IMG/VR virus record: IMGVR_UViG_3300012953_000001
Location: 64,001 to 128,000 of that record
Direction: 5' to 3' (one strand)
From: a virus
Length of the DNA stretch: 64,000 nucleotides
How positions within the stretch are numbered: position 1 is the first letter of the stretch; each line of letters opens with the position of its first letter. Below are positions 881 through 4,950 of this stretch, piece after piece. Made by a program: the position numbers and the translations under genes. The notes beneath the pieces were generated by a model. It was not told the origin of the DNA. It did not search any database and saw only the letters and a list, made by a program, of their open reading frames with translations.

Positions 881-1132
881 ATGTGGTTCTTTTATGTGGT
901 TAGATGCTCTGACAACTCTCTCTACGCAGGAATAACAACCTGTGTAGAGAGACGTATAAAAGACCACAACACAACTGCCAGAGGTGCAAAGTACACAAGA
1001 AGCCGAAGACCTGTCTCCTTGGCTATGACTAAAATATTTGGTAATAAATCAGAGGCCCTTAAATATGAGATCGGCTTCAAAAGACTGTCTAAAAAAGACA
1101 AGGAAGATATATGCTCAAAGGAGGGTATGTGA
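881..1132 (+). CDS. GIY-YIG nuclease, short UPF0213/YhbQ type
   Basis: FFYVVRCSDNSLYAGITTCVERRIKDHN...GAKYTRSRRPV matches this family; 83 aa with no DNA-binding extension. Confidence 0.9.
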   Translation: MWFFYVVRCSDNSLYAGITTCVERRIKDHNTTARGAKYTRSRRPVSLAMTKIFGNKSEALKYEIGFKRLSKKDKEDICSKEGM

Positions 1133-1414
1133 ATGAAAACTAAATACGCAATACCAACAGCGTTAGTAGATGATTTAATTCTTTCGGGAATGGCTACTGA
1201 CGAAGATGAGGCTATAGAAAAAGTAGCCTCCGGTTCAGGGCTAGTAGCTCTCAGAAACCACAAACAGCGACAGCTTGAAACGCTTATGATTGAGAAGGAC
1301 CATGGTATTACTCACCGTGGAGCCTCAGAAGGAAGCAAGATCTCCGAACTAGAAAGCGAGATTGAAGAGATAAATAAGTTGATTGAGTTTCGAGACGTAT
1401 CGGTGGAGGACTAG
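1133..1414 (+). CDS. Hypothetical protein with a C-terminal coiled coil
   Basis: Starts immediately after the previous stop and ends immediately before recA; tail KISELESEIEEINKLIE is heptad-like. Confidence 0.6.
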   Translation: MKTKYAIPTALVDDLILSGMATDEDEAIEKVASGSGLVALRNHKQRQLETLMIEKDHGITHRGASEGSKISELESEIEEINKLIEFRDVSVED

Positions 1415-2470
1415 ATGGCAAAGGATGATTTATCAAAGCTAATAAAAGGCGTTCAAAAGAGCTTGGGTGGGGCGGCAAAGATCTCCCATCTAGCCGAAGT
1501 GGATGCTCCGTTTCTGACTAGGCTTCCCACAGGGATTTTAAGTCTAGATCTAGCGTTAAAGGGCGGCTTCCCCGCAGGCTCTATGCACCAATTGTTTGGT
1601 CCTGACGGCGCAGGCAAAGACTTCCTTTCAAATCTAGTTATTGCCCAGCTACAGAGAGACTATGGAGAAAAGGCAAACGTTGCCTGGATGAGCTTCGGCT
1701 ATAAGCCCGATGTCCCATTCATGGAAATGTGCGGAATTGATGTCGATCTAGGTAACCTAATGTTTATTGATATTGGGAACGAGGACGCGTTAGACCAGCC
1801 TGCTGAGTCTCTTTTGACTGCAATGCTAGATCTTATCAGGTCTAATAAATTCCAGCTTATGGTTATCAATGAGCTTGGGTCGGGAGAGACCAAAGACAAT
1901 GTTAAGAAGGGACTCCATGAAGACGCTAAGATTGCTACTTGGGCAAGCTTGATGTCTACATTCTGCCAGAAGTTCTACAGTGCTATGCGCACTCCTGGCG
2001 AAGATGGTGAGCCTAACAAGACATGTGTAATAATGATTAATCCTGTTCGCGCAAACATTGATGCACGTTCTGCGAAGTACTTCCCATACTCTCAAGGTGG
2101 GGGTTACGCGCTGAAGCATGCTAAAGCTGTAGACCTTCACCTCCGCGCTGGAAGCACTATCAAAACTGGTGGTGAGAAAGTGGGTAAGGAGATTAAGTGG
2201 AAGATCAGCAAAGGCAAGCACGGAATCTCAGAGGGTGCTGAGGGCGGCTACACATTCATGTTTAACCGAGGAGTTGACCTTATAGAGGACCTCGCGAATA
2301 CAGCTAAATCTCTTGGGGTAATCAGAAGCTCTGGCCCTGTGTACTATGTCTTGGACTACGATGACAAAGTAAAGGGCGGAATCAGCGGCGTTGTAGACAT
2401 GCTGAAGAAGTCACCAACTCTCTGCGAGGAAGTCCGACAAGCAGTCTTGGAAAGGACTGCTGATGTCTAG
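1415..2470 (+). CDS. recA: RecA/UvsX-family recombinase with non-canonical catalytic motifs
   Basis: LPTGILSLDLALKGGFPAG, P-loop LFGPDGAGKD, GGYALKH (RecA GGNALKF) and KISKGK (RecA KVVKNK); 351 aa. Confidence 0.9.
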   Translation: MAKDDLSKLIKGVQKSLGGAAKISHLAEVDAPFLTRLPTGILSLDLALKGGFPAGSMHQLFGPDGAGKDFLSNLVIAQLQRDYGEKANVAWMSFGYKPDVPFMEMCGIDVDLGNLMFIDIGNEDALDQPAESLLTAMLDLIRSNKFQLMVINELGSGETKDNVKKGLHEDAKIATWASLMSTFCQKFYSAMRTPGEDGEPNKTCVIMINPVRANIDARSAKYFPYSQGGGYALKHAKAVDLHLRAGSTIKTGGEKVGKEIKWKISKGKHGISEGAEGGYTFMFNRGVDLIEDLANTAKSLGVIRSSGPVYYVLDYDDKVKGGISGVVDMLKKSPTLCEEVRQAVLERTADV

Positions 2471-3224
2471 AATCTACGTTAAGATAGGACCCAAGTCCAT
2501 AAGGCACATAGTTGACGGTTTACCCTTCTTACCAGGGCTGTGTATGCATCGAATGCCTACATCTGGAAAGATAAGTGAACTTTACAACATTACGCATAAT
2601 AATAGTGGGCTTGCGGTCCTATCTTCCGTAGCGGAGAAAAACCTAGAACTGGCGAGAATGGTTCTGGGTCGATTGTTGTGGGACAGGTCCTCCGCCGCAA
2701 TCTTTGAAGATGAGCGGTACCACAAATTAATGGAGGAGGCTGACGCTGTGCTGACAAATCATGAGAGAAGTAAGAAACAAGAGAAACGAATCGCAGAAGA
2801 TGTTGGCGGAAAACGCCAGCCAGCGTCCGGTTCTCGCTGGGGGTGTAAGCGAGATATCGTCTCGCCACGCCTGCTGATAGAAGCAAAAACAACTAGGTCC
2901 GCTAAGCAAGCGGTATCAATAAAAGATCTACACTTCCTAACCAAGCAAGCTTACCAACAGGGCAAAATACCCGCGTACGTTATTGAGCTAGGCTCCAAGG
3001 AGGAAGTTGTCGTTATTCATTCGCAAGACATCGCTGAAGACGTTTTTTCGGAGTTCAACGAACAGAAAGAGATAAATTGTCAGACCAAGAAGTCATTCTC
3101 TATAACATCGGGACTTGTTGACTGGTTAGGGTCTGACAACTGCGCTTTGATAGTAACGTCTAGTGGGACTTACGCCCTGCTGAACTACTACTTCTTTTTG
3201 GAAGTAGCCAAGAGGGGATTATGA
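2463..3224 (+). CDS. PD-(D/E)XK nuclease (Hjc/resolvase-like) with an N-terminal extension
   Basis: EKRIAEDVGGKRQPASGSRWGCKRDI...LLIEAKTT carries the E...D...ExK motifs typical of phage Hjc-like nucleases. Confidence 0.7.
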   Translation: MSRIYVKIGPKSIRHIVDGLPFLPGLCMHRMPTSGKISELYNITHNNSGLAVLSSVAEKNLELARMVLGRLLWDRSSAAIFEDERYHKLMEEADAVLTNHERSKKQEKRIAEDVGGKRQPASGSRWGCKRDIVSPRLLIEAKTTRSAKQAVSIKDLHFLTKQAYQQGKIPAYVIELGSKEEVVVIHSQDIAEDVFSEFNEQKEINCQTKKSFSITSGLVDWLGSDNCALIVTSSGTYALLNYYFFLEVAKRGL

Positions 3225-3937
3225 CAAAAGAAAGTAAAATGCCTGTGCGATGTCTCAGAGGAGACAAGCTACGGCATCACAACAACTTCAATACGAAGAA
3301 TGAGTATGACGCCCTCCTAGAGCAAGACAACAAAAAGCCTTGGACTAGGAAGGTCGGCCATCATCACCCATCTTCAATTGGGAATGTAAACAATGCTGCT
3401 TACGGGTGTCGTAGAGCCCTGTATTATGACCGAATAGGGGTGCCGCCTAAGGCGAGAACGACTGCGGATAAGCAAGTCATTTTTGACATGGGCCACTCAC
3501 TGCATGACATGATTCAAGACCGCTTCAAGGAGATTGAGGGCTTTGAATCAGAAGTGAATTGTGAATTCCCAGACCTAAATATTTACGGTCATTGTGATGG
3601 GGTGTTTCGCGAACAAGACTGGGTTCTCGAAATCAAAACGGTAGGCGAGAGTGTTTATCGGACATTGGTTCAGCCCAAGATAGAACACATCTGGCAGGTG
3701 CACTGCTATATGTTCTGCTTGGACATACCGAGAACACAGCTTTTCTACATAAACCGAGCCAGCGGCGCTACGAGACTTTTCAGAATCGAGTTTTCAAACA
3801 AGATCTGGGAAGAGATCGCTGCTGTCATTGGTGAGATTGAAGACCACGTCGAACGGCAAGAGCCACCCCCCAAAGAAGTGAGTAAATGGAAATGTGGGGG
3901 TTGTAAATTTTATCACGAATGTAAACCAGAATTTTAA
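3221..3937 (+). CDS. Cas4/AddB-like PD-(D/E)XK exonuclease with a 4-Cys Fe-S staple
   Basis: GCRRALYY, GHSLHDMIQ, GHCDG, LEIKT, QVHCY and C-terminal CGGCKFYHEC. Confidence 0.85.
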   Translation: MTKESKMPVRCLRGDKLRHHNNFNTKNEYDALLEQDNKKPWTRKVGHHHPSSIGNVNNAAYGCRRALYYDRIGVPPKARTTADKQVIFDMGHSLHDMIQDRFKEIEGFESEVNCEFPDLNIYGHCDGVFREQDWVLEIKTVGESVYRTLVQPKIEHIWQVHCYMFCLDIPRTQLFYINRASGATRLFRIEFSNKIWEEIAAVIGEIEDHVERQEPPPKEVSKWKCGGCKFYHECKPEF

Positions 3938-3953
3938 TCGGGAGGCACCGAGT

Positions 3954-4541
3954 ATGACCCAGAAGAAGAAAGATCTTTTTCTGGAGCTACGGGGCACGCT
4001 GGAGGAGGACCTAAAAAGGACGGGCTTTGACCCAGACACAAATCCTCCAGGGAAAGAGCCTAAGATACGGGGCTCCGTAAGTGACCTAGACGCTCCAAAC
4101 TTAAAGAAGTTATATGACCAGTTCTTAGCATTCTACGACTACATAACCGACCAAATCGCTACAGATATTGGTTTCGTTATGGTCAGCAAAGCAAGACTAG
4201 AACAAGTTCATGCACAAGCACTGCTGAGGGCTCAGGGAGACTCATCCCTAAAGAATGCGGAACAGCGAAAAGCCGCAGCCACTACAGATGGAACGTATGT
4301 AGGGGCGCAAAGAGACTACACGTACTTCAAGGCTAAACTGGCGATGCAGCAAGAGCGCAGAGACAAATATAAACGCGCCATGGACAGGATCGGCAGGGAG
4401 CTTTGGTACCGAACGCAGGACGATAGTCAAGAGTTCTACACACCGGCATCAATCGCTAGACCTGTAGCGGACAACCACGCAGCGGAGGTTCAGAAGTTTA
4501 AGTCCGGTTATAAGCGGAGGGCGGTGAAGGATGGAACGTAA
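3954..4541 (+). CDS. Helical hypothetical protein, possibly a UvsY-like recombination mediator
   Basis: GGAGG at 3941-3945 favours ATG 3954 over 3894. Long helical region (LKNAEQRKAAATTD...KAKLAMQQERRDKYKR) within the recombination cluster. Confidence 0.45.
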   Translation: MTQKKKDLFLELRGTLEEDLKRTGFDPDTNPPGKEPKIRGSVSDLDAPNLKKLYDQFLAFYDYITDQIATDIGFVMVSKARLEQVHAQALLRAQGDSSLKNAEQRKAAATTDGTYVGAQRDYTYFKAKLAMQQERRDKYKRAMDRIGRELWYRTQDDSQEFYTPASIARPVADNHAAEVQKFKSGYKRRAVKDGT

Positions 4542-4950
4542 GAAAGTATTCGAGGCGGAGCTTACAATACTCCCCCCATCAGTAAATAGAATGTATGTGT
4601 ACACGACACGAGGCCCAAGACCTTCTTCGGATATGAAAAAGTTCAAGGCTAAGGCGTCTACACAGTTAGCAAAACAAATCCCCTTTGGGGCTAAGCCATT
4701 ATCCCAAAATACCCCTTATGCCCTTCGACTGGAGTTTCACCTACCGGCGTTGCTGAACAAGGGGTGGCCGAAGAAAGCTAAGACCAAATACAAACGAAAA
4801 GATGTATCAAACCTGATCAAAGTCGTTGAGGATTTACTTTCTTGGTGTTTGGGAATAGACGACTCATGCTTCTTAGAGGTATCGGTTCAAAAGATGGATG
4901 GCTTAGTTTCAGAGTTTGTTGGAGTGAAAATAGAAGTACATGAAATCTGA
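4531..4950 (+). CDS. rusA: RusA-family Holliday junction resolvase
   Basis: LPPSVNRMY, RKDVSNLIKVVEDLL and GIDDS align with RusA motifs. Confidence 0.85.
   Translation: MERKKVFEAELTILPPSVNRMYVYTTRGPRPSSDMKKFKAKASTQLAKQIPFGAKPLSQNTPYALRLEFHLPALLNKGWPKKAKTKYKRKDVSNLIKVVEDLLSWCLGIDDSCFLEVSVQKMDGLVSEFVGVKIEVHEI

What the first reader, a model, noticed from the sequence alone, without database searches (positions are those of the whole stretch)
1415..2470. RecA with a coordinately rewired active site
Against E. coli RecA, four catalytic positions change. Walker A GKT becomes GKD (about 1612-1621). The catalytic Glu of FIDAEH becomes Gly (WMSFGY, about 1685-1702). Walker B VVDS becomes VINE (about 1862-1873), and FINQIR becomes MINPVR. 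Lys72, Arg196 and the trans-acting KxK (KGK) are kept. Inference: Thr-to-Asp offsets Asp-to-Asn for Mg binding, and the base moved to Walker B+1 as in AAA+/helicase DE motifs. Alternatively this RecA binds but does not hydrolyse ATP.
Basis: partly seen in the sequence, partly recalled or inferred. Interest (0 to 1): 0.72.

Follow-up and report, generated by a model that had tools for sequence, protein, structure and literature searches.

The report
Phage RecA with re-plumbed ATP site
A complete 178-kb marine phage encodes a full-length, strongly conserved RecA recombinase in which the acidic residues that hold magnesium and activate water for ATP splitting have moved to neighbouring positions, giving a natural test of rules thought to be universal for this enzyme class.

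Summary
ORF 1415-2470 is a 351-aa RecA-family protein with T73D, E96G, D144N, S145E and Q194P (E. coli numbering). K72, R196, K248 and K250 are kept.

It is not decay. Relatives with E at 96 appear only at or below about 40% identity to this protein. The gene sits in a conserved replication-recombination module, and synonymous sites are saturated while the protein stays conserved. AlphaFold gives pLDDT 95.6, and the model best matches active RecA filaments.

The changes are three separable layers, not one coordinated rewiring:
- **Mg-site swap.** D73 and N144 toggle together about 11 times on the tree. In 7 of 8 independent pairs they move the same way, never opposite, and N144 never occurs without D73. 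This is a replicated compensatory swap.
- **Glu relocation.** G96/E145 is perfectly complementary to E96/S145: 245 of 247 sequences have one carboxylate at 96 or 145. However, a single ancient origin is not rejected (p-AU 0.54).
- **Q194P.** It arose once, later, inside the G96/E145 clade.

My best reading (0.55) is an active ATP-dependent recombinase with a helicase/AAA+-style Walker-B Glu. The main rival (0.3) is a protein that binds ATP but hydrolyses it poorly. No biochemistry exists.

The scan flagged the same protein family on other genomes, and one follow-up agreed.

The parts
1415..2470 (+). RecA-family recombinase gene, 351 aa, full length (N-terminal helix, ATPase core, C-terminal domain)
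   Evidence: AF2 pLDDT 95.6, pTM 0.92. Foldseek best matches are active RecA filaments 7jy6/8trg/8s70/3cmw, TMq about 0.8, rmsd 2.3-3.1 A.
1598..1621 (+). P-loop GPDGAGKD. K68 = E. coli K72. D69 replaces the Mg-ligand T73.
   Evidence: In the 110-cluster family, K is invariant at 72, and position 73 is D in 86, N in 13 and T/S in 10.
1685..1702 (+). C-cap of strand beta2, WMSFGY. G95 replaces the catalytic E96 and Y96 replaces H97.
   Evidence: In the model, strand beta2 is residues 88-93.
1856..1891 (+). Walker B strand and following loop, LMVINELGSGET. N152 replaces D144. E153 replaces S145 and is the proposed relocated catalytic Glu. E158 is a second clade-specific Glu.
   Evidence: In the model, strand beta3 is residues 148-152.
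2033..2056 (+). C-cap of strand beta4, MINPVRAN. P210 replaces the gamma-phosphate sensor Q194. R212 = R196 is kept.
   Evidence: In the model, strand beta4 is residues 204-209.
2096..2119 (+). End of loop L2, GGGYALKH. G229-G230 = G211-G212 and K234 = K216. H235 replaces F217.
   Evidence: G (98%), L, H (98%) and K are conserved both in the rewired clade and in its canonical sister clade.
2201..2224 (+). KISKGKHG. K266 and K268 = the trans-acting K248 and K250.
   Evidence: K266 is invariant and K268 is at least 90% conserved.
881..1414 (+). Upstream co-oriented genes: an 83-aa GIY-YIG protein (881-1132) and a 93-aa ORF with no family hit (1133-1414). The stop of the second abuts the RecA start codon.
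2463..4950 (+). Downstream recombination genes: a 253-aa protein with an Hjc-like resolvase domain (2463-3224, overlapping the RecA stop), a Cas4-like PD-(D/E)XK exonuclease (3221-3937), a 215-aa ORF (3894-4541) and a RusA resolvase (4531-4950).
   Evidence: The same order occurs in distant relatives.

Best explanation
This is the replication-linked recombinase of a large uncultured marine phage lineage. It is a true RecA-fold filament protein that still binds Mg-ATP at the subunit interface and most likely still hydrolyses it, using a re-plumbed catalytic site.

**Layer 1 (shown by replicated covariation).** The single negative charge next to Mg2+ has moved from the Walker B Asp (now Asn152) to the residue after the P-loop Lys (Thr to Asp69). 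Asp69 would then ligate Mg2+ directly, with Asn152 keeping the hydrogen bond between the two motifs.

**Layer 2 (inferred).** The water-activating carboxylate has moved from the tip of strand beta2 (E96, now Gly95) to the residue after Walker B (Glu153). That is the position it occupies in AAA+, SF1/SF2 helicase and ABC ATPases.

**Layer 3 (inferred).** With Glu153 filling the space between the beta2 and beta4 tips, the gamma-phosphate sensor Gln194 became dispensable and was later replaced by Pro210.

The trans lysines, R196, the L2 frame and the N-terminal polymerisation helix are unchanged. I therefore expect filament assembly on ssDNA and ATP-dependent strand exchange to proceed as in RecA or UvsX, feeding the neighbouring nuclease and resolvases.
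For: **Fold and family**
- Pfam RecA scores 78 bits. The protein aligns end-to-end to TIGR02012.
- The AF2 model has pLDDT 95.6. It superposes best on DNA-bound active filaments.

**Selection**
- The family has 107 clusters at E<1e-27.
- Against a 90%-identical orthologue, 189 of 317 identical residues use different codons, versus 34 amino-acid changes. dS is saturated and dN is 0.076.

**Mg-site swap**
- Counts at positions (73,144): DN 114, ND 56, TD 53, SD 17, DD 2. There is no T/S/N with N.
- About 11 changes of each state occur on the tree. In 7 of 8 supported independent pairs they go the same way and in none the opposite way (p 0.016). The IQ-TREE subset confirms this.

**Glu relocation**
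- Counts at positions (96,145): GE 128, ES 110, EG 3, GD 2, AE 1, DS 1, NS 1. No sequence has a carboxylate at both positions, and only one has it at neither.
- Clade-specific columns are confined to 94-97, 145, 148-150 and 194. K72, R196, H217, K248 and K250 are shared with the canonical sister clade.

**Structure**
- G95, E153 and P210 cap three adjacent strands.
- PMC9599734 lists Glu (beta2 tip), Ser (D+1) and Gln (beta4 tip) as the groups around the catalytic water in RadA, KaiC and DnaB.

**Orthology**
- The gene occupies the same slot after DnaB, primase and PolA, and before the PD-(D/E)XK nuclease and RusA, in rewired relatives and in a relative with canonical E96.

**In vivo relevance of hydrolysis**
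- E. coli RecA E96D and K72R bind ATP but fail recombination in vivo (PMC5240526). A selected recombinase would therefore be expected to keep hydrolysis.
Against: - No member of the clade has been assayed.
- The E96G/S145E exchange is compatible with one evolutionary event (AU test p 0.54). Its perfect complementarity could therefore be inheritance plus constraint of another kind.
- I could not measure where the Glu153 carboxylate lies relative to ATP. The model has no ligand and its coordinates are not exposed.
- A Mg-bound Asp plus an Asn lacks the Ser/Thr-Asp proton relay that PMC9599734 argues is needed for fast hydrolysis. In Ras, Asp(WB)-to-Asn reduces activated hydrolysis to the intrinsic rate.
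- Losing Gln194 removes the known ATP-to-L2 allosteric link.
- The phage carries a second RecA-core protein with fully canonical motifs. That protein could supply ATPase activity.
Confidence: 0.55

Rival explanations
1. The protein is a filament former that binds ATP but hydrolyses it poorly. It uses Mg-ATP only as an allosteric glue for a long-lived presynaptic filament, like RecA K72R or E96D, or Rad51 with Ca2+. Glu153 and the SGE loop would then serve interface or regulatory roles, and other factors would handle turnover.
For: - All three groups that surround the catalytic water in canonical RecA-class enzymes are replaced.
- The K+1/Walker B pair, which is argued to be required for fast hydrolysis, is altered.
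- Conserved trans lysines and P-loop are equally needed for ATP binding alone.
- A second, canonical RecA-core gene and an adjacent AAA+ gene are present in the same genome and in related genomes.
- The 96/145 change may be a single event.
Against: - If hydrolysis had been abandoned, there is no evident reason for a carboxylate to be kept at exactly one of the two positions in 245 of 247 sequences, or for E145 to be 98% conserved.
- There is also no evident reason for one, and nearly always only one, acidic residue to be maintained at the Mg site through about 11 switches.
- Hydrolysis-deficient E. coli RecA mutants fail recombination in vivo.
Confidence: 0.3
2. The protein is a non-catalytic RecA paralogue acting as a mediator or cap. 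Like Rad51 paralogues or RadB/Sak4-type helpers, it would load, stabilise or regulate the real recombinase, which could be the phage's canonical 288-aa RecA-core protein or the host RecA.
For: - Two RecA-family genes co-occur in every complete or near-complete relative tested (G000, G001, G002, G003, G007, G008).
- The short one has canonical GKT, Glu, DS and Q.
Against: - The rewired protein is the full-length one. It has the N-terminal polymerisation helix, the L2 frame, the trans lysines and the C-terminal domain, and it models as an active filament protomer.
- It sits in the recombination module, in the slot occupied by a canonical-Glu orthologue in sister phages.
- The short protein lacks the KxK motif and lies about 60 kb away beside an AAA+ gene.
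Confidence: 0.1
3. The substitutions are an artefact or decay: sequencing or assembly error, a pseudogene, or a misalignment that only makes the motifs look substituted.
For: None found. This was considered only because four catalytic residues differ at once.
Against: - The same states occur in 83 independent protein clusters and on many contigs from different samples.
- The frame is open, and purifying selection is strong.
- HMMER, MAFFT and the AF2 secondary structure all place the residues at the same strand tips.
Confidence: 0.01

Closest known systems
Bacterial RecA (E. coli RecA; Pfam PF00154, TIGR02012; PDB 3CMW/3CMX, 7JY6)
   Same: - Same three-part fold over about 345 residues (TM 0.82-0.89).
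- Same P-loop Gly and Lys, R196, the GG of L2, K216, and the trans-acting K248/K250.
- Same N-terminal helix.
- Sits in a recombination gene context.
   Different: - About 24% identity. TIGR02012 scores 101 bits against a cut-off of 325.
- T73D, E96G, H97Y, D144N, S145E, Q194P, F217H and R222D.
- A remodelled loop, ELGSGET, follows Walker B.
Canonical-site sister clade of phage RecA-like proteins (e.g. P0100, P0102; metagenomic, unnamed)
   Same: - Same gene slot after DnaB, primase and PolA.
- Same family-specific residues: Q84, H217, W244, the G249 of KGK, and others.
- The K+1 position is also relaxed to N or D, with the same D73/N144 coupling (DENSQ, 19 sequences).
   Different: - Keeps E96, S145 and Q194.
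- Usually carries a 30-80 aa insertion between beta2 and Walker B (two-stretch matches).
Walker B 'DE' ATPases of other ASCE classes (AAA+, SF1/SF2 helicases, ABC, terminases)
   Same: - A Glu directly follows the Walker B residue.
- Twelve family members even read D-E (NGDEP, TGDEP).
   Different: - These have a different fold class and are not homologous at family level.
- According to PMC9599734, a catalytic Glu on the neighbouring strand, rather than at D+1, is the feature specific to the RecA/F1 class within the ASCE division. This clade departs from that rule.
T4 UvsX and Sak4/RadB-type phage recombinases
   Same: - Phage-encoded RecA-superfamily recombinases.
- PHROG 97, labelled 'UvsX-like', matches at 3e-29.
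   Different: - The best solved-structure sequence matches are bacterial RecA. No UvsX chain appears among the 60 shown.
- Sak4 and RadB are core-only, whereas this protein is full length.
- The phage's other RecA gene (288 aa) is the Sak4/RadB-like one.
Metazoan Clp1 polynucleotide kinase with Asn at Walker B (PDB 4OI1)
   Same: A natural P-loop enzyme with Asn in place of the Walker B Asp, compensated by an acidic residue elsewhere (supplement of PMC9599734).
   Different: - It is a kinase, not an ASCE ATPase.
- Its K+1 stays Thr, and the compensation comes from a Glu on the neighbouring strand rather than an Asp at K+1.

Membership tests
RecA family (Pfam PF00154) | Domain match above Pfam's gathering score | tested here: met
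   78.1 bits against a cut-off of 27, covering residues 6-271.
Bacterial RecA equivalog (NCBIfam TIGR02012) | Whole-protein score above the curated equivalog cut-off | tested here: not met
   101.2 bits against a cut-off of 325.3, although the alignment is end-to-end (6-345 to 6-320 of 321). The control, Chryseobacterium phage RecA, scores 535 bits.
RecA family | N-terminal helix, ATPase core and C-terminal domain superposable on solved RecA | tested here: met
   AF2 pLDDT 95.6. Foldseek match to 7jy6_A: E 1.7e-26, TMq 0.82, TMt 0.86, 346 columns.
RecA family / P-loop NTPases | Walker A GxxxxGK[S/T] | tested here: not met
   The motif reads GPDGAGKD, with Asp at K+1. In the family this position is D in 86, N in 13 and T/S in 10 of 110 clusters.
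RecA family / P-loop NTPases | Walker B hhhhD | tested here: not met
   The motif reads LMVIN, with Asn at the Asp position. N occurs in 87 and D in 23 of 110 clusters.
RecA/F1 class of ASCE ATPases | Catalytic Glu at the C-cap of the strand next to Walker B (E96) | tested here: not met
   Gly95 occupies this position. The class rule is taken from PMC9599734.
RecA family | Gamma-phosphate sensor Gln194 leading into loop L2 | tested here: not met
   Pro210 occupies this position. P occurs in 97 of 110 clusters.
RecA family | Trans-acting Lys248/Lys250 from the neighbouring protomer | tested here: met
   K266 is invariant and K268 is at least 90% conserved.
RecA family | ssDNA-dependent ATPase and strand-exchange activity | not testable with these tools
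   This needs purified protein.
Walker B 'DE' ASCE ATPases (works-like comparison only) | Glu immediately after the Walker B residue, positioned at the attacking water | tested here: inconclusive
   Glu153 is at D+1 and is 98% conserved in the clade. The D+1 residue is listed among the water ligands of RadA, KaiC and DnaB. The distance in this protein could not be measured.
Sak4 / RadB core-only recombinases | RecA core without N- and C-terminal domains (about 200-290 aa) | tested here: not met
   The protein is 351 aa with both extra domains modelled. The genome's other RecA gene fits this description instead.

The most novel reading that the evidence does not exclude
This is a natural RecA-class motor that hydrolyses ATP with an AAA+/helicase-type Glu directly after Walker B, and with an inverted Asp(K+1)/Asn(Walker B) pair. 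If so, the catalytic geometry that separates RecA/F1 ATPases from the other ASCE classes can be interconverted within one orthologous family. The 'strictly conserved' Ser/Thr-Asp module of P-loop NTPases could also be turned round without loss of function. The recurrent D/N toggling would then give a ready-made series of natural variants for testing proton-relay models of NTP hydrolysis.
Probability: 0.45. Interest if true: 0.8.

Novelty: new variant of a known kind. Interest (0 to 1): 0.62.

Why it matters
Two rules are treated as near-universal. The first is that P-loop NTPases keep a Ser/Thr after the P-loop Lys and an Asp in Walker B. The second is that RecA/F1-class enzymes carry their catalytic Glu on the neighbouring strand rather than after Walker B (PMC9599734). 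This phage clade of at least 130 sequence clusters breaks both rules while staying under strong selection in a recombination module.

The Mg-site swap has occurred about eleven times, with matched partners each time. That is the kind of natural double-mutant cycle mechanistic enzymologists normally have to engineer.

If the enzyme is active, it shows a path by which the different catalytic-Glu positions of ASCE classes could have arisen from one another. If it is inactive in hydrolysis, it is a widespread phage recombinase that works without ATP turnover, which would also be unexpected given the in vivo failure of E. coli E96D and K72R mutants.

It also flags an annotation problem. These proteins are labelled plain 'RecA/RadA recombinase' in public sources.

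Tried and rejected
- **Pseudogene or sequencing error: rejected.** The states are conserved in 83 clusters, and synonymous sites are saturated with few amino-acid changes.
- **Several independent Glu relocations: not supported.** Parsimony counts 4-5 changes on the free trees. However, the AU test does not reject a single clade (p 0.54; the held-together tree is 2.8 lnL units better).
- **One coordinated four-residue rewiring: rejected.** The 73/144 pair is uncoupled from 96/145.
- **dN/dS could not be computed.** dS is saturated even at 90% identity, so I gave codon counts instead.
- **The search for related loci with the family alignment failed.** It found no conserved 7-10 column stretch. 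Single-protein scans reached only close relatives.
- **The genome search could not open ENA or Logan contigs.** The IMG/VR relatives with canonical E96 that I could open were 22-52% fragments. Whether the second RecA-core gene is restricted to genomes with the rewired RecA therefore remains open.
- **Cultured representative: none found.** The best match among 50,697 phage records is 30% identical. All seven nearest records checked are canonical.
- **Prior description: none found.** Searches for GKD or GxxxxGKD Walker A motifs, and for relocation of the catalytic Glu in RecA, found nothing in the open library. Subscription journals are not covered.
- **UvsX membership was considered.** The PHROG 97 label lumps RecA with UvsX, and the solved-structure matches are bacterial RecA.
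Full report
**1. The observation**

Window 1415-2470 (+) is an open frame of 351 aa.
- It matches Pfam RecA (PF00154, 78 bits against a cut-off of 27) and PHROG 97 (3e-29).
- It matches E. coli, Thermotoga, Pseudomonas, Deinococcus and mycobacterial RecA chains of the PDB at E 1e-15 to 5e-20.
I verified the codons and coordinates:
  - GPDGAGKD at 1598-1621, with Asp69 at the Thr73 position.
  - WMSFGY at 1685-1702, with Gly95 at Glu96.
  - LMVINE at 1856-1873, with Asn152 at Asp144 and Glu153 at Ser145.
  - MINPVR at 2033-2050, with Pro210 at Gln194 and Arg212 = Arg196.
  - KISKGK at 2201-2218, with Lys266 and Lys268 = Lys248 and Lys250.

**2. It is a conserved family, not decay**

*Family size and reach*
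- A search of 5.8 billion proteins found 110 clusters. Of these, 107 have E<1e-27, all are from metagenomes, and many lie on contigs of 130-200 kb.
- An exhaustive HMMER search found 981 representatives at E<1e-10.

*Motif states*
- I aligned the family with E. coli RecA, taken by reference from locus L001. At positions 73/96/144/145/194 the 110 clusters read as follows:
  - DGNEP in 83.
  - NGDEP in 9.
  - TGDEP in 4.
  - E96/S145/Q194 combinations only among the most distant hits, at or below about 36% identity in this set. In the wider set, E96 members reach about 42%.
- No cultured phage carries the variant. The best of 50,697 phage records is 30% identical, and the seven nearest records I checked are all GKT / E / DS / Q.

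*Selection*
- Against a 90%-identical orthologue, 189 of 317 identical residues use a different codon, and only 34 residues differ.
- dS is saturated and dN is 0.076.

**3. Structure**

- With a 138-sequence alignment, AlphaFold2 gives pLDDT 95.6 and pTM 0.92.
- Foldseek's best hits are DNA-bound, extended RecA filaments: 7jy6, 8trg, 8s70 and 3cmw. They have rmsd 2.3-3.1 A and TMq about 0.8 over about 345 columns. Compressed crystal forms give 6-7 A.
- All three domains are therefore present.
- In the model the core strands are 88-93, 148-152 and 204-209. Gly95, Glu153 and Pro210 thus cap three adjacent strands.
- I could not measure distances, because coordinates are not exposed to scripts and the model holds no nucleotide.

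**4. The changes form three layers**

I combined into 247 sequences of at least 280 aa. I built trees with the trait columns removed: FastTree on all 247 and IQ-TREE on 105.

(a) *Positions 73 and 144*
- Counts are DN 114, ND 56, TD 53, SD 17, DD 2, SE 1 and TE 1. Asn144 never occurs without Asp73.
- Each state changes about 11-12 times on the tree.
- In 8 independent pairs on supported branches, 144 follows 73 in 7 and never goes the other way (p 0.016).
- The IQ-TREE subset gives about 5.7 of 6 pairs (p about 0.03).
- This is replicated compensatory evolution. It keeps at least one acidic group, and nearly always exactly one, at the metal site.
- The rare D/D state and the common N/D state look like the intermediates. 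That ordering is my inference from single-base codon steps.

(b) *Positions 96 and 145*
- Counts are GE 128, ES 110, EG 3, GD 2, AE 1, DS 1 and NS 1.
- No sequence has a carboxylate at both positions, and only one (a marginal hit, P0110) has it at neither.
- Parsimony needs 4-5 changes on the free trees. However, the backbone is poorly resolved, and a tree with all G/E sequences held together is as good or better (2.8 lnL units higher, p-AU 0.54).
- I therefore treat this as one ancient event that has been stably maintained, not as replicated covariation.

(c) *Position 194*
- Q194P arose once inside the G/E clade.
- G/E lineages with Gln or Glu at 194 still exist.

(d) *Independence*
- The 73/144 toggle is uncoupled from 96/145.

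*Other clade-specific columns*
- Columns that separate the G/E clade from its E/S sister are confined to 94-97 (SFGY), 145, 148-150 (the loop reads ELGSGET) and 194.
- The P-loop, R196, the L2 frame, H217 and the KGK motif are shared by both clades.

**5. Genomic context**

- The window is bases 64001-128000 of a complete 178,429-bp virus record with terminal repeats.
- Upstream lie an SF2 helicase, DnaB, a primase, a 375-aa protein and DNA polymerase A. A DUF7694 protein, a GIY-YIG protein and a 93-aa ORF follow.
- Then comes this gene, whose stop overlaps the start of a protein with an Hjc-like resolvase domain.
- After that come a Cas4-like PD-(D/E)XK nuclease, a 215-aa ORF and RusA.
- The order DnaB - primase - about 390 aa - PolA - RecA - about 250 aa - PD-(D/E)XK - RusA recurs in relatives of 40-51% identity. 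It also recurs, as far as the PD-(D/E)XK nuclease, in P0100, which keeps Glu96 (no RusA hit was recorded there).
- The rewired and canonical forms are therefore orthologues in the same functional slot.

**6. A second RecA-family gene**

- The genome also encodes a 288-aa core-only protein at genome 5777-6643. It has canonical GKT, Glu, DS and Q, and it follows an AAA+ gene.
- It co-occurs with the rewired gene in G001, G002, G003, G007 and G008.
- The relatives with canonical E96 that I could open were fragments, so I could not test whether it is absent from their genomes.

**7. Mechanism**

*What the literature says* (PMC9599734)
- Within ASCE ATPases, a catalytic Glu at the C-cap of the strand next to Walker B is specific to the RecA/F1 class. 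Most other classes place it directly after the Walker B Asp.
- In RadA, KaiC and DnaB the groups around the would-be catalytic water are that Glu, the D+1 residue (Ser or Tyr) and the Gln on the other neighbouring strand.
[quoted passage not shown] Its listed exceptions are Gly at K+1 in NMP kinases, Glu at Walker B, and Asn at Walker B in metazoan Clp1. It lists no Asp at K+1.

*What this clade does*
- All three water-ligand positions change, to Gly, Glu and Pro. The carboxylate moves one position sideways, to where helicases and AAA+ proteins hold it.
- My best reading (0.55) is that Mg-ATP binding is retained and hydrolysis is retained through Glu153. The first part is well supported by the replicated swap. 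The second is inferred.

*Rivals*
- The main rival (0.3) is ATP binding with little hydrolysis.
- A mediator-paralogue role (0.1) fits poorly with the protein's full-length filament architecture and its orthologous slot.
- E. coli E96D and K72R bind ATP yet fail recombination in vivo (PMC5240526). This makes loss of hydrolysis in a selected recombinase less likely, though not impossible.

**8. Comparison with known families, and novelty**

- The protein is a member of the RecA family by Pfam and by fold. It is not a bacterial-RecA equivalog (TIGR02012 scores 101 bits against 325, while the control phage RecA scores 535).
- It fails four motif-level features of the family.
- Its Walker B resembles that of a 'DE' ATPase, but it is not homologous to those classes.
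- I found no paper describing a GKD Walker A or a relocated catalytic Glu in a RecA. That search covers the open-access library only.
- I rate it a new variant of a known kind.

**9. Earlier notes of this scan**

- First readers flagged the same motif set on at least five other genomes. One follow-up (e1-5881922) also concluded that the site is re-plumbed rather than dead.
- My tests were run independently and agree with that conclusion. They add three points: the Glu relocation is compatible with a single origin, the Mg-site swap is replicated, and a canonical RecA-core paralogue co-occurs.

Noticed in passing
G000:C1:5777-6643 (= L004:1522-2388, +), outside the window: A second RecA-family gene in the same phage. 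It is a 288-aa core-only protein with fully canonical GKT, catalytic Glu, DS and Q but no KxK motif. It has weak RadB-like hits. It lies directly after a 452-aa AAA+ ATPase (PHROG 8638) and before a 197-aa ORF whose Cys-rich N-terminus looks, by eye, like a radical-SAM activase; this ORF was not scanned. It co-occurs with the rewired RecA in five related genomes.
   Followed up: partly
window 2463-3224 and 4531-4950: One recombination module holds two different Holliday-junction-resolvase-like genes: a 253-aa protein whose residues 92-204 match PHROG 2002, and a RusA. A Cas4-like exonuclease lies between them. The N-terminal 90 residues of the 253-aa protein have no family hit.
   Followed up: no
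window 881-1132: A stand-alone 83-aa GIY-YIG domain protein with no DNA-binding extension lies two genes upstream of recA.
   Followed up: no
L014:1467-4235: In the relative that carries P0094, the DNA polymerase A gene is 922 aa and holds an intein (Hint / Intein_splicing plus HNH hits). The intein-less orthologues are 629-667 aa.
   Followed up: no
Alignment /scratch/all.aln, E. coli position 73: Across the whole phage RecA radiation, including the clade with canonical Glu96, the residue after the P-loop Lys is often Asn (56 of 244 sequences, always with Asp144). The Ser/Thr rule is therefore relaxed well beyond the rewired clade.
   Followed up: partly
window 6681-35350, minus strand: A run of very large ORFs (2579, 1496, 2194 and 2406 aa) lies on the opposite strand immediately after the recombination module. 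They are presumably virion or fibre proteins.
   Followed up: no
window 1856-1891: A second clade-specific Glu (E158, in the loop ELGSGET, aligned to E. coli T150) is 82% conserved in the rewired clade and is hydrophobic in the sister clade. Its role is unknown, and it is an alternative candidate for a catalytic or interface carboxylate.
   Followed up: partly
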